Positions 13,359 through 38,458 of a stretch of DNA of 64,000 nucleotides are shown here, piece after piece. The notes below the pieces were generated by a model. That model did no database searches. It was not told the DNA's origin and saw only the letters and a list, made by a program, of their open reading frames with translations. Location: the NCBI GenBank assembly GCA_964536865.1, contig CAZHYN010000001.1, positions 16,195 to 80,194 on the forward strand, given 5' to 3'. The translations under genes and the position numbers were made by a program. Position 1 is the first letter of the stretch, and each line of letters begins with the position of its first letter. Origin of the DNA: an uncultured Planctomycetia bacterium (GTDB taxonomy: Bacteria; Omnitrophota; Gorgyraeia; Duberdicusellales; 4484-171).

Positions 13359-13430
13359 GGCGGCGTAGCCAAGGGGGAAGGCAGTGGTCTGCAAAACCAC
13401 TATTCAGCGGTTCAAATCCGCTCGCCGCCT
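13359..13430 (+). tRNA. tRNA-Cys (GCA)
   Basis: Acceptor stem GGCGGCG/CGCCGCC, anticodon loop CTGCAAA, T-loop TTCAAAT, discriminator U; no encoded CCA. Confidence 0.8.
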
Positions 13431-13573
13431 TAAAGAAGAATTTTTAGGCGGAGAGGAGAAATAAATTTGTTTGTAGCAAGAGGTTATCTCTATAAGTTAT
13501 TCCCGCACTGCTTACAATTGAAGAGAGTAACATTAGGAAGAATTAAAAGTTGCTGAAGAGGAGAAAGAATTAT

Positions 13574-13659
13574 GGGCGGGTGGCGGAATAGGCAGACGCC
13601 TGGGACTTAAAATCCCATGTCCCGTAAGGGACGTGAGGGTTCGAGTCCCTCCCCGCCCA
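13574..13659 (+). tRNA. tRNA-Leu (TAA)
   Basis: Acceptor GGGCGGG/CCCGCCC, anticodon loop CTTAAAA, long variable arm GTCCCGTAAGGGAC, T-loop TTCGAGT. Confidence 0.8.
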
Positions 13660-13751
13660 GGTTAACAAAATTACAGATTTATCAATTATAAATTTCAAAT
13701 TTTATAAATTAATTTGTAATCTATAATTGGCTAATTTGAAATTATATTTTT

Positions 13752-13828
13752 GGGCGCATAGCTCAGGTGGCTAGAGCGTCACGTTGACATCGTGAAGGTC
13801 AGAGGTTCAAATCCTCTTGCGCCCACCA
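13752..13828 (+). tRNA. tRNA-Val (GAC), CCA encoded
   Basis: Acceptor GGGCGCA/TGCGCCC, D-loop AGCTCAGGTGGCTAGAGC, anticodon loop TTGACAT, T-loop TTCAAAT, 3' ACCA. Confidence 0.85.
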
Positions 13829-19257: not shown

Positions 19258-19736
19258 GAGGAGCGATTCTTTTTCTTTTTATTTTTGGTATGTTTCCTTT
19301 AGTAACCTATCCTCAAAGCTTAAAGGAAATTTTGAAGAATCCTCAGTATTTTGATAATCGTAAGATAGTTTTTCAAGGAGAAGTGATAGGTGAACCTTTA
19401 AAAGAAGAGGGAGGGGTATGGATTAATATAAAGCAGGGAAGAGTAGGTATAGGAGTATTTTTAGAAAACCCAGAGGAGGTTACCAAGATTAAAAATTTCG
19501 GCTCCTACAAGAGAAGAGGAGATTGGGTTCAGATAGAGGGGGTATTTTTTAACAATTGCCCAGTTCATTTAGAGAGAGATATCCATGCTTACAAACTCAA
19601 AGTAATAAAACCAGGTTTTATTTTAAGGGAGGAGATACCTCTTTTTAAAAGGAAACTCTCATTGGGTCTAGCTTTACTTTGTTTGACATTAGGGATAATT
19701 TGTTTTATAACTTTAAAATATGTTAGAAGAGATTAA
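19254..19736 (+). CDS. Hypothetical membrane-anchored protein (N-terminal signal/TM, C-terminal TM)
   Basis: 160 aa; hydrophobic N- and C-termini; no recognisable family. Confidence 0.5.
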   Translation: MRGAILFLFIFGMFPLVTYPQSLKEILKNPQYFDNRKIVFQGEVIGEPLKEEGGVWINIKQGRVGIGVFLENPEEVTKIKNFGSYKRRGDWVQIEGVFFNNCPVHLERDIHAYKLKVIKPGFILREEIPLFKRKLSLGLALLCLTLGIICFITLKYVRRD

Positions 19737-20751
19737 GAAAATAGAAGATAGTTTCTTGCAAGAAATTGAAAAAGTAAAAAATTTAGAAGACCTAGAAGTT
19801 CTCCGCATAAGATATCTAGGTAGAAAATCTTTTATCAACCAAGCCTTTTCTCGTATTCCCAAATTGGAGAGAAACCAAAGGGCAGAATTGGGTAGAGCTT
19901 TAAATACTGTTAAGAAAAAGATTGCTTTCCTCTTAGATGAGAAAAGAAAAACTCTTTCTGTGCAAGAGAAAAAAATAGATCTCACTGTTCCTTCTTTCTC
20001 TATAGATAGAGGAATAAAACACATCCTTACACGAGTAAATGATGAGATTTGTAGCATTTTTGAGAAGTTGGGATTCATTATTATAGAGGGTAAAGAGATT
20101 GAAGATGAATGGCATAATTTTGAAGCCTTAAATATTCCCTTAGAGCACCCTTCAAGAGATGTGTTTGATACTTTTTACCTAGATTTATCATCTCCTTCTA
20201 AGGAGAAACGTAGACTTCTTTTAAGAAGCCATACCTCTCCTTCCCAAATAAGAGTAATGGAAAAAATGCGTCCTCCCTTAGCGGTTATCTCTCCAGGAAG
20301 AGTTTACAGGCCCGACAAAGTTGATGCTTCTCATTCTTTTATGTTCCATCAAGTCGAGGGTTTCTGTGTAGATAGGAATATAAATTTTTCTCACCTCAAA
20401 GGAGTCCTTTTCTACTTCGCCAGAAGTTTTTTCTCTCCTCAAGTGAAACTGAGATTTCGCCCCCACTATTTTCCTTTTACTGAGCCTTCAGCAGAAGTAG
20501 ATTTGGGTTGTATCCTCTGTGAGGGGAAAGGATGTAGTGTGTGTTCCTATAAAGGATGGGTGGAAATCTTAGGGTGTGGGATGATTCATCCTAAGGTATT
20601 GAAGGCTTGTAAGATAAACCCAAAAGAATACCAGGGATTTGCTTTTGGTATGGGGGTAGAAAGAATAGCCATGCTTAAGTATAGGATAAATGATATCCGG
20701 CTATTCTTCGAAAATGATTTAAGGTTTTTGGAGCAGTTTTATGAAGTTTAG
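19720..20751 (+). CDS. pheS: Phenylalanyl-tRNA synthetase alpha subunit
   Basis: 343 aa with class II motifs (FRPHYFPFTEPSAEVD). Confidence 0.95.
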   Translation: MLEEIKKIEDSFLQEIEKVKNLEDLEVLRIRYLGRKSFINQAFSRIPKLERNQRAELGRALNTVKKKIAFLLDEKRKTLSVQEKKIDLTVPSFSIDRGIKHILTRVNDEICSIFEKLGFIIIEGKEIEDEWHNFEALNIPLEHPSRDVFDTFYLDLSSPSKEKRRLLLRSHTSPSQIRVMEKMRPPLAVISPGRVYRPDKVDASHSFMFHQVEGFCVDRNINFSHLKGVLFYFARSFFSPQVKLRFRPHYFPFTEPSAEVDLGCILCEGKGCSVCSYKGWVEILGCGMIHPKVLKACKINPKEYQGFAFGMGVERIAMLKYRINDIRLFFENDLRFLEQFYEV

Positions 20752-22720
20752 TCTAAGTTTTGTAAAGGAATTTATTGGTTTAAAAGAGCCACCGCAAAAG
20801 ATAGCCGAGCTTTTAACTATGGCAGGGCTGGAGGTAGGACACATCTACCGAGAGGGAAATGATTGGATATTAGAAACAGAGGTTACCAGCAATCGTCCTG
20901 ATTGGCTCTCTATTGTAGGAATAGCGTATGAACTTTCTGCTCTTCTGAGAAGAAAGTTAAAAATTAAGATACCCCGCTTGATGACAAAACCTTTATTGAA
21001 AGAGATAGATATTATCATCCAAGATGAAGAAGGTTGTTCTGTATATCTAGCTAGGTTAATAAAGGGGGTAAAGGTAGAAGATTCTCCTTCTTGGTTAAAA
21101 CAGAAGATAGTAGGTTGTGGGATAAACCCTGTGAATAATATTGTAGATATAACTAACTACTGTATGATTAAGTGGGGCAATCCTTTACATGCTTTTGATT
21201 TTGATAAGATAGAAGGAGATGTTTATGTGCGAAGAGCAAAGAAGAGAGAAAAGTTTACAGGTTTAGATGAAAAAGAGAGGGTTTTAACTGAGGAGAATTT
21301 AGTAATTGCTGATGAGAGAAAGGTTATTGCTTTAGCAGGAATAATTGGAGGCAAAAATACAGAGGTAGATGGGAATACTAAAAATATCCTTTTAGAAGGA
21401 GCAATTTTTTCTCCAGTAAGAATAAGACGTTCGAGAAGAGCGGTGGGGACAGAGACAGAGTCTTCCTACAGGTTTGAACGGAGAGTGTCTTGGGAAAGGT
21501 TGAAGGTAGCTTCTCAAGAAGCAGTTAATCTTATGCTTTCTTTAGGGGGAGGGAAATTATATGGATGTATAGAAAGAGGGAGGAGACCTCAGAAAAAAAC
21601 AAGGAGAATAGTTATTAGCCTCCCCCATTTAGAGAACTATCTAGGGGAGAGGATTCCTAAACGAGAGGTAAAGACAGTTCTTACCTACCTTGGTTTTCAA
21701 ATGGAAAAAGTTTATAAAGAGAAACTATATCTTAAACCACCTTCTTTACGTATGGATATTTCTTCTCCTGTTGATATTTATGAGGAAGTGGCACGGATAT
21801 ATGGGTACGATAGAATAAAACCTACCTTACCTTTTATTCCTAAACAGATCTACAGGAGTTTCTACCAATTTAAAAAAGCATTGAGAGATTTTCTGACAAG
21901 CTTAGGTATTAAGGAAGTAATTACCTACAGCATAACCTCTCAGAGTTTGTTAGAAGAATTAAAGGAGAAGAATTTCATAAGGATTTCTAATCCCTTACGT
22001 CAGCAGGAGAACGTTTTGCGTCCTACTCTTTTATGTGGAATGATAGAAGTGGTAAAATACAATTTAAATCAGAGGGCTTCTACTCTTAAATTCTTTGAAA
22101 TCGCAAATGTTTACTTCAAGGAAGGAAATGGTTACAAGGAAGGAGCAAATTTAGCTATTGCCTTTAGTGGAGAGAAGAATCAGGTCTTTTATCTTAAGGG
22201 GGTAGTAGAAGAAATCTTTAGGTTTACTAACATAGGAAGTTACTCTTGGGTACCTAAAGAAAGGGTCAATTTTGCTAATGCATTAGATATAGTGAAGGAT
22301 AATCAACCTTTAGGATTCTTGGGTAAGATGAACTCAAGATTAAAAGAAAAATTCGATCTAACTGAAAATTTATACTTTGCTCAGATTGATTTGGAAAAGT
22401 TATGGGAGAAGAGAGGCCCACGATATTTTTCCCCTTTTAGTAGATTTCCTGCAGTTTTTAGAGATATAAGTATAGCTCTTAAAGAAGTTAGATTTTCTCA
22501 ACTAGAGGAGATAATAAAGAAAGAGGCAGGAAGTTATTTTAAAAGAGTAGAAGTTATTGATCTCTATCAAGGGGAGAATATACCTCCTCAATTTTTTGCT
22601 CTAACTTTGAGAATTTACTACCAAGCTCCAGATAGAACATTAACTTCTATAGAAGTAGATGATATGCATAATCGTATAAGAAAAATCTTAGGAGAAATGG
22701 AAGGAGTAATTCTGCGTTAA
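20741..22720 (+). CDS. pheT: Phenylalanyl-tRNA synthetase beta subunit (short form)
   Basis: 659 aa; N-terminus MKFSLSFVKEFIGL as in PheT; B3/4 and B5 regions present. Confidence 0.9.
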   Translation: MKFSLSFVKEFIGLKEPPQKIAELLTMAGLEVGHIYREGNDWILETEVTSNRPDWLSIVGIAYELSALLRRKLKIKIPRLMTKPLLKEIDIIIQDEEGCSVYLARLIKGVKVEDSPSWLKQKIVGCGINPVNNIVDITNYCMIKWGNPLHAFDFDKIEGDVYVRRAKKREKFTGLDEKERVLTEENLVIADERKVIALAGIIGGKNTEVDGNTKNILLEGAIFSPVRIRRSRRAVGTETESSYRFERRVSWERLKVASQEAVNLMLSLGGGKLYGCIERGRRPQKKTRRIVISLPHLENYLGERIPKREVKTVLTYLGFQMEKVYKEKLYLKPPSLRMDISSPVDIYEEVARIYGYDRIKPTLPFIPKQIYRSFYQFKKALRDFLTSLGIKEVITYSITSQSLLEELKEKNFIRISNPLRQQENVLRPTLLCGMIEVVKYNLNQRASTLKFFEIANVYFKEGNGYKEGANLAIAFSGEKNQVFYLKGVVEEIFRFTNIGSYSWVPKERVNFANALDIVKDNQPLGFLGKMNSRLKEKFDLTENLYFAQIDLEKLWEKRGPRYFSPFSRFPAVFRDISIALKEVRFSQLEEIIKKEAGSYFKRVEVIDLYQGENIPPQFFALTLRIYYQAPDRTLTSIEVDDMHNRIRKILGEMEGVILR

Positions 22721-22727
22721 AATATTC

Positions 22728-22756
22728 TTGAAAAGTATCTTTTAGTATGGTATAAT
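22728..22756 (+). promoter_or_regulatory. Strong sigma70-type promoter for the downstream ncRNA
   Basis: TTGAAA (22728-22733), 17-nt spacer, TATAAT (22751-22756). Confidence 0.65.
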
Positions 22757-22762
22757 CAAAAT

Positions 22763-22925
22763 GAAAATTCCCTGCCTGTTGCGTGAGCAGGCATTGCGCC
22801 ACAGCCAACACTGTTTAAGAGGGAGCTTTTCTCTCCTACTGCTGAGGCAGTGGGAGGCGGCGCCCACCTGTATGAGGACCGGACTGTTGGTGGTAAGCCT
22901 GCCACGGACACAAGGCAGGGTTTTT
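22763..22925 (+). ncRNA. Structured small RNA of about 160 nt; candidate 6S RNA (ssrS)
   Basis: Locally GC-rich, non-coding region between a consensus promoter and a hairpin + U5 terminator (GCCTGCC...GGCAGGG TTTTT at 22906-22925); long-range complementarity between the 5' and 3' ends (CCCTGCC/GGCAGGG, GCAGGC/GCCTGC, CCACAGCCAACA/TGTTGGTGG) and internal hairpins; lies upstream of rarA and the 5-formyl-THF cyclo-ligase gene, the classical 6S linkage. Confidence 0.45.
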
Positions 22926-22945
22926 AATTTTCTCTTTCTGGAGAG

Positions 22946-24184
22946 ATGGCTGTCCCTTTAGCGGTTAAATTGAGACCTAATACCTTAGAAGAATTTGTAG
23001 GGCAGAAACATCTTTTAGGAGAGAGAAAACTTTTACGGCGAGCAATCCTTTCTAAAAGAGTCCCCCCTTTAATTTTCTGGGGTCCGGCAGGATGTGGTAA
23101 GACTACGTTAGGGTTTATAATCGCTAATTATCTAAGTGCAGAATTTAAGTATCTTAATGCTGCCTTTTCCTCTCTGAAGGAGATTAAGGAGATTCTTGAT
23201 CGGGCTCGTAGAGAATTTTCTAATACTCAGAAGCAGTTAATTCTCTTTGTTGATGAAATTCACCGCTTTAATAAACTTCAGCAGGAAGCTTTCCTCCCTG
23301 ACACCGAACATGGGACGATAATCTTTATTGGAGCAACTATTTATAACCCCTACTACTACCTCATTCCCTCATTAATATCTCGAGCTATTGTAGCCCACTT
23401 TCACCCTCTAAGTAAAGAGGAAATAATTACTATTTTGAAGAGAGCGTTAAGAGATAAAGAGCGAGGGTTGGGGAATTTAAATATAAAGATTACCAATAGA
23501 GCCTTAGAGTATCTTGCTACTCTTTCTGGAGGTGATGCGAGAAAAGCTCTTTCTAGTTTAGAGATAGGTGCTTTAACTACCTCTTCCGATAGAGATGGGA
23601 GGATAATTCTTAACTTAGAGGTAGCAAAAGAGATAATCCAGAAGAATATCTTCTATGATAAAAAGGATTCCTACCACTACGATACTATTTCTGCTTTTAT
23701 AAAATCTATCAGAGGGTCAGATGTGGATGCTAGCCTCTATTGGTTAGCTAAGATGATAAAAGCAGGAGAGGACCCTCGGTTTATTGCTCGAAGGTTAGTT
23801 ATTTTAGCTAGTGAAGATATAGGCAACGCTAACCCTTTTGCTCTGGTTTTAGCTACTAGTTGTTTTAAAGCTGTGGAATTTGTAGGAATGCCTGAAGCAA
23901 GTTTAATTTTGGCTCAGATTACCATTTACTTAGCTTCTTCTCCTAAATCTAACGCTAGTTACAAAGCTCTAGAGAGAGCTATGCAAGATATAGAGAAAGA
24001 AGAGACTAAGGAGGTTCCCTTTCATCTTAAAACACACTCTTCTCACTATAAATATCCTCACGATTTTGGAGGTTACCTAACACAGAGTTATGGTGTGAGC
24101 AGAAAATATTATTATCCCCTTAGTGTAGGAGAAGAGAAAAAGATAAAGGAGTTTTTAGATAATTTAAGGTCCCCTAATAGCTAG
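22946..24184 (+). CDS. rarA: Replication-associated recombination protein A (AAA+ ATPase RarA/MgsA)
   Basis: N-terminus LRPNTLEEFVGQKHLLG, Walker A GPAGCGKTTL, MgsA C-terminal helical domain. Confidence 0.9.
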   Translation: MAVPLAVKLRPNTLEEFVGQKHLLGERKLLRRAILSKRVPPLIFWGPAGCGKTTLGFIIANYLSAEFKYLNAAFSSLKEIKEILDRARREFSNTQKQLILFVDEIHRFNKLQQEAFLPDTEHGTIIFIGATIYNPYYYLIPSLISRAIVAHFHPLSKEEIITILKRALRDKERGLGNLNIKITNRALEYLATLSGGDARKALSSLEIGALTTSSDRDGRIILNLEVAKEIIQKNIFYDKKDSYHYDTISAFIKSIRGSDVDASLYWLAKMIKAGEDPRFIARRLVILASEDIGNANPFALVLATSCFKAVEFVGMPEASLILAQITIYLASSPKSNASYKALERAMQDIEKEETKEVPFHLKTHSSHYKYPHDFGGYLTQSYGVSRKYYYPLSVGEEKKIKEFLDNLRSPNS

Positions 24185-24285
24185 CTTTAGCTAACTCTTT
24201 TGTAATCAATAAGTTAAAATTTAAAAACATTTTTACTTTGGTTTAATTAATGGTATAATAAAAATTCTATAGCAACCAATAAAAA

Positions 24286-24840
24286 GTGAAGGGTAATCTG
24301 AGAAAAAAATTATTGGACAAATTGCTTTCCCTTACTTTGGAGGAGATAGAAAGGAGGAGTAGAAATGTTGAGAAGAATTTACAAAAACTTCATGAATATA
24401 TTAAGGCTAAATGTATTATGGTCTACTATCCTTTAAAGGGTGAAGTAAACCTTTTAGGGATGGTGAGGAAGGATATGGATAAAAAAAGGATATGCTTCCC
24501 TTTTATAAAAGGAAGGGAGCTGTATCCTTACGAGGTAAAAGATCTGGATGAAGATTTTATAAAAGGACCTTGGGGAGTTACTCATCCTAATCCCGAGAAG
24601 ACAAAAAGAGTGAAACTAAGAGAGTTAGATTTAGTGATTATTCCAGGATTAGGGTTTAGTCCTCAAGGAGAGCGGTTAGGTAGAGGAAAAGGCTTTTACG
24701 ATCGCTTTTTAAAAAAATTACCTAAGGAGACAAAAAAAATTGGCGTTGCTTTTGATTTCCAAATAATAGAAAACCTTCCTCATCAATTCCCTCACGATGA
24801 AAAGGTAGACATCTTAATTACTGACACTAACTCTTTTTAA
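24286..24840 (+). CDS. 5-formyltetrahydrofolate cyclo-ligase
   Basis: 184 aa; C-terminal [11 protein letters not shown] motif typical of MTHFS/YgfA. Confidence 0.85.
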
Positions 24841-24871
24841 ATATCACAGCTTAAAAAATAAGGAGGTAAAA

Positions 24872-26422
24872 ATGCTTGCTATTTATATTATCCTCGGAAT
24901 ACTGGCAGGGTTAGGAGGAGGATATCTTTTAGGAGAACTTTTAGGAAAAGGTAGGGTTAAAAGAGCAAGAGAAGAAGCAACAAAATTTATAGAGGAAGCA
25001 AACCAGAAAGCAGAGCAAATTATTAGAAAAGCAGATTTGGACGCTAAAGAAATGCTTTACAAATTAAGGTTAGACTTTGAGAAACAGACAAGCCAAAAGA
25101 AGGAAGGACTTGCTCATTTAGAGAGGAAGTTAACTCAAAGGGAGGAAAATCTGGAGAGAAGATTAGATTTTATAGAGAGTAAGGAGAGAGAACTCTCTAG
25201 ACGAGAAGAAAACCTAAAAACTGCCTCTCGGGAATTGGAAGAACAAAGAGAAGAATTAGGTAGATTAATTGCAGAAGAGAAAGAGCATCTTCAGAAAATT
25301 TCTTCTTTAACTCCTCAAGAAGCTAGAGAACTTCTTCTTAAGAGATTTGAGGAGGAGTTACGGCAAGAGAAGGCAAAGATGTTGAGAGAGATAGAAGAGG
25401 AAGTTAAAGAAGAAGCAGAGAAGAAAGCTAAAGAGATCGTTTCCTTAGCAATTCAACGTTGTGCAGTAGAGCATACTACAGAAACTACGGTAAGTGTAGT
25501 GCAGCTTCCCAACGATGAGATAAAGGGAAGGATTATTGGTCGAGAAGGGAGAAATATAAGAGCTTTTGAGATGGTTACAGGGGTAGATTTAGTTATTGAC
25601 GATACCCCTGAAGCAGTAAGTATATCCAGTTTCGATCCTATAAGGAGAGAAATTGCTCGTTTAGCTTTAGAGAGTTTAGTCGCTGATGGGAGAATTCATC
25701 CTGCACGTATTGAAGAGGTAGTGGAGAAGACAAAGAAAGAGTTTGAAAAGAAGTTGATAGAAGAAGGTAAACAAGCTGCTTTTGAGGTAGGGATTCATAA
25801 CCTTCATCCTGAGTTAGTAAAGCTGTTGGGGAAGCTGAAGTATAGAACTAGCTTTGGCCAGAATGCCCTTCAACATTCTAAGGAGGTAGCATTTATTATG
25901 GGGATATTAGCTGCAGAGTTAAATTTAAATTCACATTTAGCTAAAAGAGTGGGTTTGCTTCATGATATTGGAAAGGCAGTAGATCATCAGGTGGAAGGTA
26001 CACATTCTAAAATTGGAGCAGAACTCCTAAGAAAGTATGGGGAAAATGAAATTGTAGTTAATGCTGCGGAAGCCCATCATGAAGAAGCAGAGTTTAAATC
26101 TCTCTATAGCCTTCTAGCCTTAGTAGCAGATGCCATAAGTGCTTCTCGACCAGGAGCAAGAAGAGAGACCTTAGAGACTTATATAAAGAGATTACATGAG
26201 TTAGAGAGTATCGCTTCTTCTTTCGAAGGAGTAGAGAAAGCTTTTGCTATCCAAGCAGGAAGAGAGATAAGAGTTATTGTGAGTCCTAACAAAATAAAGG
26301 ATGAAGAGATAGCTTTGTTGGCTTTGGAGATAAAGAAAAGGATAGAGAAAGAGATGGAATACCCTGGGCAGATTAAGATAACAGTAATAAGAGAGGTAAG
26401 GGCTATAGATTACGCAAAGTAA
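24872..26422 (+). CDS. rny: Ribonuclease Y
   Basis: N-terminal TM, coiled coil, KH domain ([12 protein letters not shown]) and HD domain (LLHDIGK); 516 aa. Confidence 0.9.
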
Positions 26423-26424
26423 AA

Positions 26425-27207
26425 ATGAGAATCTTATTTATAGGAGATATCGTTGGTAGGCCAGCACGTCAGTATTTAAGAGAGGTTCTACCGCGGATAC
26501 GAGAAACGAGGAGAATAGATTTTGTAATTGCTAATGGAGAAAATGCTAGTGGTGGTTCAAGTATTGTTCCTTCTACTGCCAGAGAATTATTCTCTGTAGG
26601 GATAGATGTGATTACTAGTGGTGATCACATATTTAAAAAGAGAGAAGCAAAACAAACCTTAGAAAATATGGATGTGTTAAGGCCTCTTAATTATGGAGAG
26701 AATGCCTGGGGAAGGGGTTTCTTGATAAAAAAGATAAACGGGGTTAAAATAGCTGTAGTTAATCTTTTGGGAAGAGTGTTCATGCAACCCATAGATTGCC
26801 CTTTCAAGAGTATAAGGGAACTTCTTCCTCGTATAGAGAAAGAAGCAAGGATTATAATTGTAGATATGCATGGAGAAGCTACTTCAGAGAAGTTAGCTAT
26901 GGGTTATTTTTTAGCAGGTAAAGTAAGTGCGGTGTTAGGCACTCATACCCATATTCCTACTGCGGATGAAAGGATAATCGAAAACTTCACTGGTTATATC
27001 ACTGACGTAGGAATGACAGGGAGTTTTGATTCTATTTTAGGGAGAGAGAAGCATCAGATTATAGAAAGGTTTATTACCAATCTTCCTCTACGTTTTAACC
27101 TAGCAGAGAAAGACGTAAGAATCCAGGGGGTAATTTTAGAGATAGATGCCTCCACAGGGAGATGTTTATCTATTAAACGCTTAGAAGAAAGAAGGGAGGT
27201 AGAATGA
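26425..27207 (+). CDS. ymdB: YmdB-family metallophosphoesterase (2',3'-cyclic-nucleotide phosphodiesterase)
   Basis: MRILFIGDIVGRPAR N-terminus (TIGR00282-like); rny-ymdB pairing as in Bacillus. Confidence 0.85.
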   Translation: MRILFIGDIVGRPARQYLREVLPRIRETRRIDFVIANGENASGGSSIVPSTARELFSVGIDVITSGDHIFKKREAKQTLENMDVLRPLNYGENAWGRGFLIKKINGVKIAVVNLLGRVFMQPIDCPFKSIRELLPRIEKEARIIIVDMHGEATSEKLAMGYFLAGKVSAVLGTHTHIPTADERIIENFTGYITDVGMTGSFDSILGREKHQIIERFITNLPLRFNLAEKDVRIQGVILEIDASTGRCLSIKRLEERREVE

Positions 27208-33330: not shown

Positions 33331-33343
33331 TGAGAAAACCTTT

Positions 33344-33370
33344 AAGCTGGTCCCGTGAGGCCAGCAAGGA
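33344..33370 (+). promoter_or_regulatory. PyrR-binding RNA stem-loop (anti-antiterminator element)
   Basis: AAGCTGGTCCCGTGAGGCCAGC: stem GCTGG/CCAGC enclosing UCCCGUGAGGCC, matching the PyrR box consensus (A/G)UCCnGnGAGGyU; located in the pyrR leader. Confidence 0.65.
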
Positions 33371-33400
33371 GAGGAACAATGAAAAAGAAATTTAAAATTA

Positions 33401-33437
33401 AAAACCCACTTTCAAAGAGTGGGTTTTATTTTTTTTA
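33401..33437 (+). terminator. Intrinsic terminator (pyr attenuator)
   Basis: AAAACCCACT-ttcaaag-AGTGGGTTTT followed by ATTTTTTTT, immediately upstream of the pyrR start. Confidence 0.7.
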
Positions 33438-33439
33438 AA

Positions 33440-33994
33440 ATGAAGTTTAGAGAGAAAGCAAAGATTCTATCTTCCCAAGATATAAAAAGAATCCTTCACC
33501 GCCTAACTCATCAAATTTTAGAGAAAAATCCTGATCCTTACGAACTTGTTATTGTAGGAATTCAAACACGCGGTGTTTACTTAGCCAAGAGGATTCAAGA
33601 AATTATAGAGAAGGTAGAAGGTGTAAGGTTGCCTTTAGGGATTTTAGATATCACTCTATATCGAGATGATTTGACGATGATAAGGGAGGTTCCTTTAGTG
33701 AAGGAGACTAAAATCAGTTTTGATTTAAGTGATAAAGTGGTGATTTTAATAGACGACGTTTTGTTTACAGGAAGAACAGTAAGGTGCGCTTTAGATGAGA
33801 TTATGGATTTTGGTCGTCCTAAGAGAATAGAGCTTTTAGTTCTTATTGACCGAGGTCATCGTGAGCTCCCTATAAGGGCAGATTTTGTGGGTAAAAATAT
33901 TCCTACTGCTAAGAGAGAGTTGGTAGAGGTGAAACTTACTGAGATAGATGGAATCGATGAGGTGGTGATTTTAGAGAAAGAAGAGGATGATTAA
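33440..33994 (+). CDS. pyrR: Bifunctional pyr operon regulator / uracil phosphoribosyltransferase PyrR
   Basis: PRPP-binding motif [19 protein letters not shown]; ATG 33440 chosen over the track's GTG 33419, which lies inside the terminator hairpin. Confidence 0.85.
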
Positions 33995-34931
33995 CTGGCA
34001 GAAGAAACATATTCTAGGGATAAAAGATTTGACTCGCCAGGAGATGGAGATAGTATTTAATCTAGCAACGTCTTTTAAAGAGCTTTCTCAAAGAGAAGTG
34101 AAAAAGGCTCCTGCTTTGCGAGGAAAGACCGTGATAAATTTATTTTTTGAAAGCTCTACTCGTACACGCACATCTTTTGAGCTAGCTGCCAAGCGTTTAA
34201 GTGCCGATGTGTTAAATTTTTCTTCCTCAACAAGTAGTCTTAGCAAAGGAGAAACAATAGTCGATACTATTAAGAATTTAGAGTCTTATCATCCTGATAT
34301 TTTAGTGATAAGGGTAGGCTACTCTAATTCTCTTCAGTTTCTTTCTCAATATACCTCTGCTAGCATAGTTAACGCAGGAGACGGTGCTAATGAGCATCCT
34401 ACGCAAGCTTTACTTGATATGTTTACAGTTAAAGAAATAAAGGGAACTTTGGAAGGATTATCTGTGCTAATTGTGGGAGATATAAAACACTCTCGGGTAG
34501 CACGCTCTAACATCTTTGGATTTCAAAAATTTTCCTCTTCTCTTAAAGTATGTGGGCCACCTACTCTTATTCCCTATGAATTTCATAAGTTAGGAGTGGA
34601 TATTTCTTATAATTTGGATGAGTGTCTTCCTCAAGCAGATGTGATAATTTTTTTGAGAATTCAATGGGAACGGCAGAAATCTTCTTTTTTCCCTAGTATA
34701 AGAGAATACGTAAGTAACTTTTCTCTCACTCCTGAAAGAATAAAGAGAATAAAAAAGGATTGTCTTATTATGCATCCCGGTCCAGTAAATTGGGATATAG
34801 AGATAAGTTCCCAGTTAAAAGAAAGAATTCACCCTTTAATCCTTAAGCAAGTAGAGAATGGTTTAGCTATAAGAATGGCTACTCTTTATCTTGTAGGGAC
34901 ACAGAAAGGAGAGTATGAAGATACTAATTAG
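33987..34931 (+). CDS. pyrB: Aspartate carbamoyltransferase catalytic subunit
   Basis: STRTRTSFE and HPTQ motifs. Confidence 0.95.
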
Positions 34932-36204
34932 AGGGGCAAAGATAGTAAATTTTGATAGTATCGTAGAAGCGGATATTTTTATTCGCAATAGTCGTGTTGC
35001 TAAGATAGGAGAGGTTAATGAGGAGCCAGATAAAATTATTGATGCTCGAGGAAAATTTGTTCTTCCAGGATTGATTGATATGCACACTCATCTACGTACC
35101 CCGGGTAGAGAAGACGAAGAAGATTTGTGGTCTGGGTCAAAAGCAGCAGCTAAAGGTGGTTTTACTACCATCTTCTGTATGCCTAATACTAATCCTGCCT
35201 TAGATAACCAGGGTCAGGTGAATTGGCTTTTAGAGGAAGCAGAAAAAGTTGGGATATTAGAGATTCTTCCTGTGGGTGCGATTACTAAAGGCAGAGAAGG
35301 GAAAGAGTTATCGGAATTTGGAATGCTTAAACAAGCAGGATGTCTCTGTTTAAGTGATGATGGCAACCCCTTAGAAGATTCTTCTCTTTTAAGAAGAGCT
35401 TTAGAGTATGCTAAGATGTATGGTCTGCTTATTATTTCCCATTGTGAAGATAAAAACCTTTCTGCCTCAGGAAGTCTACGAGAGCACCTCATTTCCTCTA
35501 AGTATGGAGTGGAAGGGATTCCTTGGGCGAGTGAAAGCATAGCAGTATTTAGAGATGTAGAGTTAGCAAGGTACTTAGACACAAAAATCCATATTGCTCA
35601 CGTAAGTAGTAAAAGGAGTCTCCAAATTATAAAAAGAGCTAAAGAGGAAGGGGTAAAGGTAAGTTGCGAGACCGCCCCTCATTACTTTACTCTTACTATA
35701 GAAGATTTAGAGAAGAGTCATTTTCACCCTAACTTTAAAGTCAATCCTCCTTTAGGAGATAGAGAGGATCTAGAGGCAATAAGAGAAGGTTTAAAAGAAG
35801 GGGTAATTGATTGCATTGCTACTGATCATGCTCCTCACTCTCAGGGAGAGAAGGAGTTACCTTTTGAAGAAGCACCTCCTGGAGTTATAGGACTGGAATT
35901 AGCATTTTCTCTTTCCTATACTTATTTGGTGAAGAAACAGATATTAGATTTAAAAGACCTTGTAAAACTAATGTCTTATAATCCTGCAAATATCTTAGGT
36001 CTTAAGGATAAGGGGTATATAAAAGAGGGAGCTTGGGCAGATTTAGTTATTATAGATTTATCTAAGAGTTGGCAAGTACTCCCTCATAAACTTTTTTCTA
36101 AATCCAAAAATACACCGTTTATTGGTCATACTCTCGAAGGGGTAGTAGAGTACACTATCAGTAGAGGTAAGGTTGTTTATACTGAGAAAAATAAAAATGG
36201 TTAA
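34915..36204 (+). CDS. pyrC: Dihydroorotase
   Basis: DMHTHLR metal-binding motif; 429 aa. Confidence 0.9.
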   Translation: MKILIRGAKIVNFDSIVEADIFIRNSRVAKIGEVNEEPDKIIDARGKFVLPGLIDMHTHLRTPGREDEEDLWSGSKAAAKGGFTTIFCMPNTNPALDNQGQVNWLLEEAEKVGILEILPVGAITKGREGKELSEFGMLKQAGCLCLSDDGNPLEDSSLLRRALEYAKMYGLLIISHCEDKNLSASGSLREHLISSKYGVEGIPWASESIAVFRDVELARYLDTKIHIAHVSSKRSLQIIKRAKEEGVKVSCETAPHYFTLTIEDLEKSHFHPNFKVNPPLGDREDLEAIREGLKEGVIDCIATDHAPHSQGEKELPFEEAPPGVIGLELAFSLSYTYLVKKQILDLKDLVKLMSYNPANILGLKDKGYIKEGAWADLVIIDLSKSWQVLPHKLFSKSKNTPFIGHTLEGVVEYTISRGKVVYTEKNKNG

Positions 36205-38386: not shown

Positions 38387-38458
38387 GCCCCTGTAGCTCA
38401 ACGGATAGAGCACAGGCCTCCGGAGCCTGGAATACAGGTTCAATTCCTGTCAGGGGCA
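38387..38458 (+). tRNA. tRNA-Arg (CCG)
   Basis: Acceptor GCCCCTG/CAGGGGC, D-loop AGCTCAACGGATAGAGC, anticodon loop CTCCGGA, T-loop TTCAATT. Confidence 0.85.

What the first reader, a model, noticed from the sequence alone, without database searches (positions are those of the whole stretch)
22728..22925. Promoter- and terminator-delimited structured RNA of about 160 nt upstream of rarA and MTHFS: candidate 6S RNA
A consensus promoter (TTGAAA-17-TATAAT) drives a GC-enriched, non-coding segment. It ends in the hairpin GCCTGCC/GGCAGGG followed by U5. The 5' and 3' regions are complementary over three separated blocks, giving a long irregular closing helix around a central domain with internal hairpins. 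6S RNA genes are classically linked to the 5-formyl-THF cyclo-ligase gene (ygfA), which lies two genes downstream here. Alternatively, the terminator lies only about 20 nt before rarA, so this could be a cis-acting leader or attenuator controlling rarA.
Basis: partly seen in the sequence, partly recalled or inferred. Interest (0 to 1): 0.55.

Follow-up and report, generated by a model that had tools for sequence, protein, structure and literature searches.

The report
Ordinary 6S RNA gene before rarA
This is a normal 6S RNA gene, the small RNA that mimics an open promoter and holds back the housekeeping RNA polymerase, found in an uncultured Omnitrophota-like bacterium; it is a routine annotation, and its only unusual feature is that it sits 20 bases before rarA with the classical partner gene MTHFS next.

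Summary
Window 22766..22925 (+) matches Rfam 6S/SsrS (RF00013) over the whole model at 52.5 bits, above the gathering score of 46.4. No other family matches at E<=1.

- **Fold:** The RNA folds as a rod (-77 kcal/mol, z = -4.9). It has a closing stem, a medial stem, a 14/15-nt central bubble flanked by G-C pairs, and a short apical stem.
- **Ends:** An 11/12 extended -10 promoter (22728..22756) lies 6-9 nt upstream. U5 directly follows the closing stem.
- **Relatives:** 6S genes sit in the same place, directly upstream of rarA on the same strand, in 24 of 160 related loci.
- **Covariation:** In a 26-sequence alignment 92% of cells pair, against about 44% when partners are slid, and 20 of 30 pairs show double changes. 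The nearest relative (L081) differs by 7 compensatory pairs.
- **pRNA start:** The E. coli start U44 maps onto window C44 (22809). This predicts a pRNA 5'-GUUGGCUGUGGC.
- **Gene order:** The block pheST-6S-rarA-MTHFS-rny-ymdB recurs in Omnitrophota MAGs.

The pure "rarA leader" alternative is not supported. However, rarA begins 20 nt after U5 with no promoter of its own, so it probably depends on read-through, as ygfA does in E. coli ssrS-ygfA.

Novelty is low: this is a new member of a known family.

The parts
22728..22756 (+). Sigma-70-type promoter of the 6S gene: -35 TTGAAA (22728-22733), 17-nt spacer, extended -10 TGgTATAAT (22748-22756). The predicted start is about G22763/A22764.
   Evidence: It scores 11/12 with TG and is the best site in 21500-25500. 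An extended -10 at the equivalent position is seen in most related loci: 18/24 have a -10 matching >=5/6 and 16/24 have TG. The start site is inferred from spacing and has not been measured.
22766..22925 (+). 6S RNA (ssrS) gene, 160 nt as delimited by the Rfam model. The primary transcript is probably 22763..about 22925.
   Evidence: RF00013 at 52.5 bits (gathering score 46.4), model positions 1-187. Custom model R1 gives 67.5 bits, E about 1e-13, against 19 bits on the reverse strand. MFE z = -4.94.
22770..22792 (+). 5' strand of the closing stem (RNA nt 5-27). It includes CCCUGCC 22770-22776, which pairs with GGCAGGG 22914-22920.
   Evidence: Rfam alignment and MFE. Helices 1-2 of the family alignment are 95% paired, with 9 of 15 pairs showing double changes.
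22794..22806 (+). 5' strand of the medial stem (nt 29-41), which is also the predicted pRNA template. It ends in ACAGCC, which pairs with GG(A)CUGU 22881-22887 around a bulged A118.
   Evidence: Compensatory changes against L081 at pairs 32-128 and 35-124.
22807..22820 (+). 5' strand of the central bubble (nt 42-55, AACACUGUUUAAGA). The predicted pRNA initiation template is C44 = 22809.
   Evidence: Single-stranded in the Rfam consensus. E. coli U44 and window C44 both align to model position 45. U44 is the E. coli pRNA start according to PMC3299989.
22821..22865 (+). Apical (terminal) stem-loop, nt 56-100. It opens with GGGAGC paired to GCGCCC and is short: 7 nt where the Rfam consensus has 34.
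   Evidence: Compensatory changes against L081 at pairs 74-85 and 75-84. Relatives L003, L008, L016, L081, L087 and L094 share the short form of 154-161 nt.
22866..22880 (+). 3' strand of the central bubble (nt 101-115, ACCUGUAUGAGGACC).
   Evidence: The CCCACCU motif at its 5' edge is conserved across the family.
22881..22920 (+). 3' strands of the medial stem (nt 116-129) and closing stem (nt 131-155). This stretch also holds the alternative local hairpin CCUGCC 22898-22903 / GGCAGG 22914-22919.
   Evidence: The fold with the local hairpin enforced is -63.7 kcal/mol, against -77.0 for the rod.
22921..22925 (+). U5 tract directly after the closing stem. Stem plus U-run form an intrinsic-terminator-like 3' end.
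   Evidence: A T-rich tail (>=5 T in 8 nt) follows the closing stem in 18 of 24 related loci. Terminator efficiency is not known.
22929..22946 (+). Predicted 7-bp hairpin in the 20-nt spacer. It pairs the rarA Shine-Dalgarno GGAGAG and the A of the AUG with UUUCUCU.
   Evidence: It is not conserved in L081, so its significance is doubtful.
22946..24184 (+). rarA/mgsA (412 aa). It has no promoter of its own in the 20-nt gap and is probably expressed by read-through from the 6S and/or pheST promoters.
   Evidence: Pfam MgsA_C, AAA_assoc_2 and RuvB_N. No + strand promoter-like site between 22757 and 22946. Co-transcription is inferred.
24286..24840 (+). 5-formyltetrahydrofolate cyclo-ligase (MTHFS, ygfA/fau homologue), the classical 6S synteny partner. 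A promoter-like site lies at 24232-24259.
   Evidence: Pfam 5-FTHF_cyc-lig, 7e-41. Promoter-like site scoring 10/12. The linkage with 6S-rarA recurs in relatives.

Best explanation
The segment is the ssrS gene for a canonical 6S RNA of an uncultured, Omnitrophota-like bacterium.

**Shown here:**
- It matches the 6S covariance model.
- It has the defining rod architecture: closing stem, G-C-flanked central bubble, apical stem.
- Its helices are supported by covariation in relatives.
- It has a strong extended -10 promoter, and a U-run follows the closing stem.
- It sits in a 6S-rarA-MTHFS context that recurs in relatives.

**Inferred from what is established for E. coli and B. subtilis 6S RNAs:**
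- The RNA accumulates and occupies the active-site cleft of the housekeeping sigma-RNA polymerase holoenzyme as an open-promoter mimic. This dampens sigma-70-type transcription in slow growth.
- When NTPs return, the polymerase uses the RNA as a template from C44 (22809) and makes a short pRNA, predicted 5'-GUUGGCUGUGGC(GC).
- The pRNA hybrid unzips the medial stem, refolds the 3' bubble strand and releases the polymerase.

**Also inferred:**
- The closing stem plus U5 acts as the 3'-end-forming terminator.
- That terminator is leaky enough for read-through transcripts to carry rarA, and perhaps MTHFS, which has no room for a promoter in the 20-nt gap. This would parallel the E. coli ssrS-ygfA operon.
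For: - **Model match:** RF00013 at 52.5 bits (gathering score 46.4) over the full model, and the only family at E<=1 in 22600-23100.
- **Fold:** MFE -77 kcal/mol, z = -4.94. The canonical fold with the bubble kept open is only 3 kcal/mol above the MFE.
- **Bubble:** It is flanked by C40-G117 and C41-G116 on one side and G56-C100, G57-C99 and G58-C98 on the other. This matches the published definition (PMC4064990).
- **Family covariation:** In 26 sequences, 91.9% of cells pair against 40-45% when partners are slid, 20 of 30 pairs show double changes, and 0 of 500 shuffles reach the observed values.
- **Nearest relative:** L081 (RarA 71% identical) has a 160-nt 6S in the same place. It shows 7 compensatory double substitutions. 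RNA identity is 71%, against 40-44% in the flanks, and it folds independently into the same rod.
- **Ends:** The promoter scores 11/12 with TG. The promoter and U-tail are conserved across 24 loci.
- **pRNA start:** Window C44 and E. coli U44 fall on the same model position (PMC3299989). The predicted pRNA has GG at positions 4/5, as reported to be conserved (PMC8414754).
- **Synteny:** pheS-pheT-[6S]-rarA-MTHFS-rny-ymdB is seen in L003, L008, L055 and L082. 6S-ygfA and 6S-rarA linkages are both documented (PMC2848244, PMC4064990, PMC9130861, PMC8414754).
- **Not coding:** The overlapping 66-aa ORF has no Pfam match, and 4 single-base indels against L081 would shift its frame.
Against: - The Rfam score is only 6 bits above threshold. 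Part of the medial stem is offset by a bulged A that the generic model misaligns.
- The unconstrained MFE closes part of the bubble with weak 2-bp contacts.
- There are no expression, RNAP-binding or pRNA data for this organism.
- The covariation alignment was fitted to the model structure, which favours pairing.
- L001, the relative in the genome collection with the closest RarA (69%), has no 6S upstream of rarA. The linkage is therefore not universal even nearby.
- The read-through claim rests only on spacing and the absence of a promoter-like site. U5 after a long G+C-rich stem could be an efficient terminator, and rarA could instead be fed by pheST read-through.
Confidence: 0.93

Rival explanations
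1. A cis-acting leader or attenuator of rarA, not a trans-acting 6S RNA. Under this reading the structured 5' UTR switches between terminator and antiterminator folds to set rarA expression.
For: The U5 tract ends only 20 nt before the rarA start codon, and rarA has no promoter-like site of its own. Two alternative partners exist for GGCAGGG: CCCUGCC at 22770-22776 and CCUGCC at 22898-22903. L081 keeps the tight spacing, 6 nt.
Against: - It is a full-length 6S model match, and no cis-regulatory family matches at E<=1.
- The same RNA lies 40-340 nt from rarA in other loci, some with an additional stand-alone terminator.
- Both alternative folds place a G+C stem directly before U5, so no antiterminated state is predicted.
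- 6S genes embedded in the 5' UTR of a downstream gene are the norm in E. coli and Coxiella (PMC2848244, PMC4064990).
Confidence: 0.03
2. A stand-alone, efficiently terminated 6S gene with no transcriptional coupling to rarA. In this case rarA-MTHFS would be expressed from pheST read-through processed around the 6S, or from an unrecognised promoter inside the 6S gene. This rival concerns only the operon architecture, not the 6S identity.
For: - The long G+C-rich closing stem followed by U5 and then AAUUUU resembles a good intrinsic terminator.
- 6S genes of lactic acid bacteria are reported to be monocistronic with a downstream terminator (PMC8414754).
- pheT ends 7 nt before the -35 element with no terminator, so upstream transcripts enter the region.
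- MTHFS has its own promoter-like site at 24232-24259.
Against: Any pheST transcript would meet the same closing-stem/U5 signal, so rarA still needs read-through of it. No promoter-like site was found on the + strand in 22757-22946. In E. coli, ssrS and the downstream gene are co-transcribed (PMC2848244, PMC3299989).
Confidence: 0.35
3. A chance G+C-rich structured spacer, or a decayed 6S pseudogene that no longer functions.
For: The Rfam score is close to the threshold (52.5 against 46.4), and the apical domain is much shorter than the consensus.
Against: - The z-score is -4.94.
- The RNA is 71% conserved against L081, while the flanks are 40-44%, and there are 7 compensatory pairs.
- The same short form of 154-163 nt recurs in L003, L008, L016, L081, L082, L087 and L094.
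- The promoter and U-tail are intact.
- It is the only 6S match in the 64-kb window.
Confidence: 0.02

Closest known systems
E. coli 6S RNA (ssrS) in the ssrS-ygfA(fau) operon
   Same: It belongs to the same Rfam family; E. coli scores 139.8 bits. It has the same closing stem, central bubble and apical stem plan. The pRNA start falls on the same model position (E. coli U44, window C44). A 5-formyl-THF cyclo-ligase gene lies downstream on the same strand, and the downstream gene probably depends on transcription through the 6S gene (PMC2848244, PMC3299989).
   Different: - The window RNA is 160 nt against 184 nt, with a much shorter apical domain.
- rarA is inserted between 6S and MTHFS.
- The 3' end here looks like an intrinsic stem-plus-U5 signal. 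The E. coli primary transcript ends by Rho-dependent termination inside ygfA and is then trimmed (PMC3299989, citing Chae et al. 2010).
- The predicted pRNA starts with G, not A.
B. subtilis 6S-1 RNA (bsrA) and the 6S RNAs of Lactobacillales
   Same: The genes lie close to rarA (PMC8414754). They have their own promoter and a terminator. The pRNA starts with G and has GG at positions 4-6 (window prediction GUUGG; B. subtilis start at nt 40, PMC8876501).
   Different: In Lactobacillales rarA lies upstream of 6S, and in B. subtilis it is in the opposite orientation and monocistronic (PMC8414754). L020 (Fictibacillus) shows that Bacillus-type layout. Here 6S lies immediately upstream of rarA on the same strand, 20 nt away.
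Coxiella burnetii 6S RNA
   Same: The 6S gene is mapped in the 5' UTR of the downstream protein gene. The bubble is flanked by conserved G-C pairs (PMC4064990).
   Different: The downstream gene is ygfA directly. The RNA is about 185 nt.
Aquifex aeolicus 6S RNA (short form; size recalled from my own knowledge of Willkomm et al. 2005, not checked here)
   Same: It is a compact 6S of about 160 nt with a short apical arm. It is a G+C-rich RNA in a genome that is otherwise less G+C-rich.
   Different: The two were not compared directly here. The phylum and gene context differ.

Membership tests
6S / SsrS RNA (Rfam RF00013) | Match to the family covariance model at or above the curated gathering score, over the full length | tested here: met
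   52.5 bits against 46.4, model positions 1-187, E = 1.3e-7 for the 64-kb window.
6S / SsrS RNA (Rfam RF00013) | Size of about 150-200 nt and a rod-like fold: closing stem, large central bubble, terminal (apical) stem | tested here: met
   160 nt. Closing stem nt 5-27/131-155, medial stem nt 29-41/116-129, bubble nt 42-55/101-115, apical stem nt 56-100.
6S / SsrS RNA (Rfam RF00013) | Conserved G-C pairs flanking the central bubble on both sides (PMC4064990, citing Barrick 2005) | tested here: met
   C40-G117 and C41-G116 on the closing side; G56-C100, G57-C99 and G58-C98 on the apical side. The corresponding columns are 21-26 of 26 G-C/C-G in the family alignment.
6S / SsrS RNA (Rfam RF00013) | Helices supported by covariation among homologues | tested here: met
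   91.9% of cells paired against 40-45% when slid, 20 of 30 pairs with double changes, 0 of 500 shuffles. There are 7 compensatory pairs against L081. Caveat: the alignment was fitted to the model.
6S / SsrS RNA (Rfam RF00013) | A pRNA template start in the 5' bubble strand, homologous to E. coli U44 / B. subtilis nt 40, directing a purine start | tested here: met
   Window C44 (22809) and E. coli U44 share model position 45. The predicted pRNA is 5'-GUUGGCUGUGGCGC, with a 14-mer duplex energy of -28.8 kcal/mol. Actual pRNA synthesis was not tested.
6S / SsrS RNA (Rfam RF00013) | pRNA-induced refolding (3' bubble hairpin or bubble-collapse helix) that releases RNAP | tested here: inconclusive
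   With nt 31-44 blocked, the model forms hairpins at nt 102-112 and 113-126. These are small (-5.1 kcal/mol in isolation), and their conservation was not examined.
6S / SsrS RNA (Rfam RF00013) | Specific binding to the housekeeping sigma-RNAP holoenzyme, and accumulation in stationary phase | not testable with these tools
   This needs gel shift or RIP and Northern or RNA-seq. The organism is uncultured and known only from Logan assemblies of SRR7517633 and SRR7517634.
6S / SsrS RNA (Rfam RF00013) | Typical (not defining) synteny with 5-formyl-THF cyclo-ligase (ygfA) and/or rarA | tested here: met
   rarA lies 20 nt downstream and MTHFS is the next gene. The linkage recurs in relatives: 24 of 160 rarA loci have 6S directly upstream, as do 10 of the 16 testable loci that carry MTHFS. 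Literature: PMC9130861, PMC8414754.
Rho-independent (intrinsic) terminator | A G+C-rich stem immediately followed by a U-run | tested here: met
   Either the closing stem (CCCUGCC/GGCAGGG and beyond) or the local 6-bp hairpin (22898-22903/22914-22919) abuts U5 at 22921-22925. Efficiency is unknown.
Transcription-attenuation leader / riboswitch | Mutually exclusive terminator and antiterminator folds, or a match to a known cis-regulatory family | tested here: not met
   No cis-regulatory Rfam match at E<=1. In both alternative folds GGCAGGG is paired directly before U5.

The most novel reading that the evidence does not exclude
6S-rarA-MTHFS may be an old, conserved transcription unit in Omnitrophota, PVC-group and Nitrospirota-like lineages. 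It would unite the two 6S linkages so far described separately: rarA in Firmicutes and ygfA in Proteobacteria.

In this organism the 6S closing stem plus U5 would act as a partial terminator. Expression of rarA, which is proposed to act at stalled replication forks (PMC8414754), and perhaps of MTHFS, would then be tied quantitatively to 6S promoter activity. 6S would be matured from the 5' end of the rarA mRNA.
Probability: 0.3. Interest if true: 0.35.

Novelty: new member of a known kind. Interest (0 to 1): 0.15.

Why it matters
It matters mainly for annotation. The result places a bona fide ssrS gene, with promoter, 3' end and predicted pRNA start, in a sparsely sampled uncultured lineage; the closest RarA relatives are only 69-71% identical. 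A standard Rfam scan would find this gene, so nothing about 6S biology changes.

The one modestly useful by-product concerns gene order. 6S directly upstream of rarA on the same strand, often followed by MTHFS-rny-ymdB, recurs across several phyla. This connects the Firmicute (rarA) and Proteobacterial (ygfA) 6S synteny patterns. It could serve as an anchor for finding divergent 6S RNAs in candidate phyla, as was done for lactic acid bacteria (PMC8414754).

Tried and rejected
- **Full-length covariance model:** A trimmed alignment (A2) misaligned the 3' ends. I therefore built R1 with the apical domain deleted. R1 is lineage-tuned and does not detect E. coli ssrS, so Rfam positions were used to map the pRNA start.
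- **L001:** This closest genome-collection relative has no 6S upstream of rarA. Its only hit was a sub-threshold Staphylococcus sRNA match (19 bits against a 69-bit cut-off), dismissed as chance.
- **Closer relatives:** Neither the genome nor the metagenome scan gave anything closer than 71% RarA identity. The exact-protein look-up returned only identical DNA from two runs, so there is no population variation to exploit.
- **Literature:** No paper mentions both 6S RNA and Omnitrophica. Barrick 2005 and Wehner 2014 are not held, so their synteny statements are cited second-hand through PMC9130861 and PMC4064990.
- **Coding hypothesis:** The 66-aa ORF 22761-22961 was rejected. It has no Pfam hit, and there are frame-shifting indels against L081.
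- **Reverse-strand gene:** Rejected. R1 gives 19 bits against 67.5, and the promoter and U-run fit only the + strand.

Full report
**1. The observation**

- **Promoter.** It reads TTGAAA (22728-22733), 17 nt, then TATAAT (22751-22756), with TG at 22748-22749. It scores 11/12 and is the best site in a 4-kb scan. Promoter-like sites as a class are not enriched there (10 found, 8.0 +/- 2.9 expected).
- **Composition.** The segment downstream is 57.5% G+C, in surroundings of about 29-40%.
- **3' end.** It ends in GCCUGCC-N10-GGCAGGG followed by U5 at 22921-22925. Only six of the seven positions can pair. The 10-nt loop is why the consensus terminator scan did not list it.
- **Fold.** As RNA it folds to -77 kcal/mol, against -57.6 +/- 3.9 for dinucleotide shuffles (z = -4.94, 0 of 200 as good). 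The 5' and 3' thirds pair into a long irregular helix.
- **Neighbours.** pheS and pheT lie upstream. Downstream are rarA/mgsA (starting at 22946, 20 nt after U5), a 5-formyl-THF cyclo-ligase, RNase Y and YmdB.

**2. What it is**

A scan of the whole window against Rfam gives a full-length match to 6S/SsrS RNA (RF00013) at 22766-22925 on the + strand. The score is 52.5 bits against a gathering score of 46.4. A permissive scan of 22600-23100 finds nothing else at E<=1, so SRP, tmRNA and cis-regulatory families are excluded.

The alignment and folding give the canonical anatomy:

| Element | RNA positions |
|---|---|
| Closing stem | nt 5-27 with 131-155 |
| Medial stem | nt 29-41 with 116-129, with a bulged A118 that the generic model misplaces by one base |
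| Central bubble | 14 nt (42-55) opposite 15 nt (101-115) |
| G-C pairs flanking the bubble | C40-G117 and C41-G116; G56-C100, G57-C99 and G58-C98 |
| Apical stem-loop | nt 56-100, short |

Keeping the bubble open costs only 3 kcal/mol relative to the MFE. This is the published definition of 6S architecture (PMC4064990; PMC8414754).

**3. Comparative evidence**

RarA places the organism nearest to unclassified and Candidatus Omnitrophota MAGs. The best identities are only 69-71%. The exact locus occurs, with identical DNA, in assemblies of two sequencing runs.

Rfam finds 6S directly upstream of rarA on the same strand in five related loci. A lineage-tuned covariance model (R1) raises this to 24 of 160 rarA loci. 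They span Omnitrophota, Planctomycetota, Lentisphaerota, Nitrospirota-like and Bacillota MAGs. One Bacillus-type locus has 6S on the opposite strand.

In the 26-sequence model-guided alignment:
- 91.9% of cells form standard pairs, against 40-45% when the 3' partners are slid by 1-3 columns.
- 20 of 30 pairs show changes on both sides.
- No shuffle out of 500 reaches the observed values.
- Caveat: the alignment is fitted to the model.

L081, the nearest relative with the RNA, provides an independent check:
- Its 6S is also 160 nt and ends 6 nt before rarA.
- The RNA is 71% identical, while the flanks are 40-44%.
- Seven pairs carry compensatory double substitutions.
- It folds on its own into the same rod.
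- Four single-base indels between the two RNAs, and the lack of any Pfam match, rule out the overlapping 66-aa ORF.

**4. Ends of the gene**

An extended -10 element lies at the equivalent position in most of the 24 loci: 18 have a -10 matching at least 5 of 6, and 16 have TG. Eighteen have a T-rich run immediately after the closing stem. The promoter-to-U-run unit is therefore a property of the family, not a coincidence in this window.

GGCAGGG (22914-22920) pairs with the 5' CCCUGCC (22770-22776) in the rod. Forcing the local hairpin costs 13 kcal/mol. Prefix folding suggests that a transient 5' hairpin (nt 8-28) is displaced before the 3' strand is made. In either fold a G+C stem abuts U5, so there is no antiterminated state. 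This argues against an attenuator.

**5. How it probably works**

The following is inferred from E. coli and B. subtilis 6S RNAs; none of it was shown here.

- The RNA should occupy the housekeeping holoenzyme as an open-promoter mimic.
- Through the Rfam consensus, the experimentally defined E. coli pRNA start U44 (PMC3299989) and window C44 (22809) fall on the same model position.
- The predicted pRNA is 5'-GUUGGCUGUGGCGC. It has a purine start and GG at positions 4/5, as reported to be conserved (PMC8414754).
- A 14-mer hybrid is worth -28.8 kcal/mol. It would unzip the medial stem and allow small hairpins at nt 102-112 and 113-126. This parallels the refolding described for other 6S RNAs (PMC8876501), but the support here is weak.

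**6. Relation to rarA and MTHFS**

rarA has no room for a promoter. The gap is 20 nt, and no promoter-like site was found on the + strand between 22757 and 22946. pheT ends 7 nt before the -35 element with no terminator. rarA therefore has to be reached by transcription through the 6S gene. This matches the co-transcribed ssrS-ygfA unit of E. coli and the 5'-UTR location of 6S in Coxiella (PMC2848244, PMC3299989, PMC4064990). This step is inference; I rate it at about 0.6.

tblastn shows the block pheS-pheT-[6S]-rarA-MTHFS-rny-ymdB in Omnitrophota MAGs (L003, L008), in the unnamed metagenome contig L082, and in a Victivallales MAG (L055). 6S is present upstream of rarA in 10 of the 16 testable loci that have MTHFS downstream, against about 14 of 143 without it.

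Proximity of 6S to rarA is already described for Lactobacillales and B. subtilis, in a different order or orientation (PMC8414754). Linkage to ygfA is described for Proteobacteria and others (PMC9130861). This locus combines both.

**7. Verdict**

The finding is correct and ordinary. It is a canonical 6S RNA gene that any Rfam-based annotation would call, in an under-sampled lineage. It counts as a new member of a known kind, and interest is low.

The only mildly new points are the same-strand, near-abutting 6S-rarA arrangement, which recurs across phyla, and the three-way 6S-rarA-MTHFS linkage. Together these suggest an old operon-like unit and offer a practical synteny anchor for finding divergent 6S RNAs.

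Noticed in passing
window 33335-33435 (+): Rfam PyrR binding site (RF00515) at 57.9 bits, above its gathering score of 54. It lies directly before ORFs at 33419-33994 (191 aa), 33987-34931 (314 aa) and 34915-36204 (429 aa). This looks like the attenuator leader of a pyrR-pyrB-pyrC-type operon. The ORFs were not identified.
   Followed up: no
window 24232-24259 (+): A second good promoter-like site, TTTACT-16-TATAAT with TG (10/12), lies in the 101-nt gap between rarA and the MTHFS gene. MTHFS may therefore also be transcribed independently of 6S-rarA.
   Followed up: no
window 22929-22946 (+): A predicted 7-bp hairpin (UUUCUCU / GGAGAGA) would sequester the rarA Shine-Dalgarno sequence and the A of the start codon in any read-through transcript. 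It is absent from L081, so it may be fortuitous.
   Followed up: partly
window 19720-27207 (+); L003, L008, L055, L082: The gene order pheS-pheT-[6S]-rarA-MTHFS-rny-ymdB is conserved between the window, Omnitrophota MAGs (L003, L008), a Victivallales MAG (L055) and an unnamed metagenome contig (L082). L005 and L006 keep the protein genes but have no detectable 6S.
   Followed up: partly
L019 3112-3158 (+): A Verrucomicrobiae MAG carries an Acido-Lenti-1 RNA (RF01687, 48.4 bits against a gathering score of 37) about 850 nt upstream of its rarA gene, where other lineages have 6S.
   Followed up: no
L020 7453-7633 (-): In Fictibacillus norfolkensis the 6S match lies downstream of rarA on the opposite strand. 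This is the Bacillus-type arrangement described in PMC8414754 and contrasts with the same-strand upstream position in the window.
   Followed up: no
window 22765-22924 (-); L081 2325-2484 (-): The reverse complement of the 6S gene also gives weak hits to the custom model (19 and 16 bits). This reflects the near-symmetry of the rod and is a reminder that strand calls for 6S need the promoter and U-tail.
   Followed up: yes
window 13359-13825 and 38387-38458 (+): There are three clustered tRNA genes and one isolated tRNA gene. All are 57-61% G+C like the 6S RNA, in a genome region of roughly 30-40% G+C. Structural RNAs are therefore markedly G+C-enriched relative to coding DNA.
   Followed up: no
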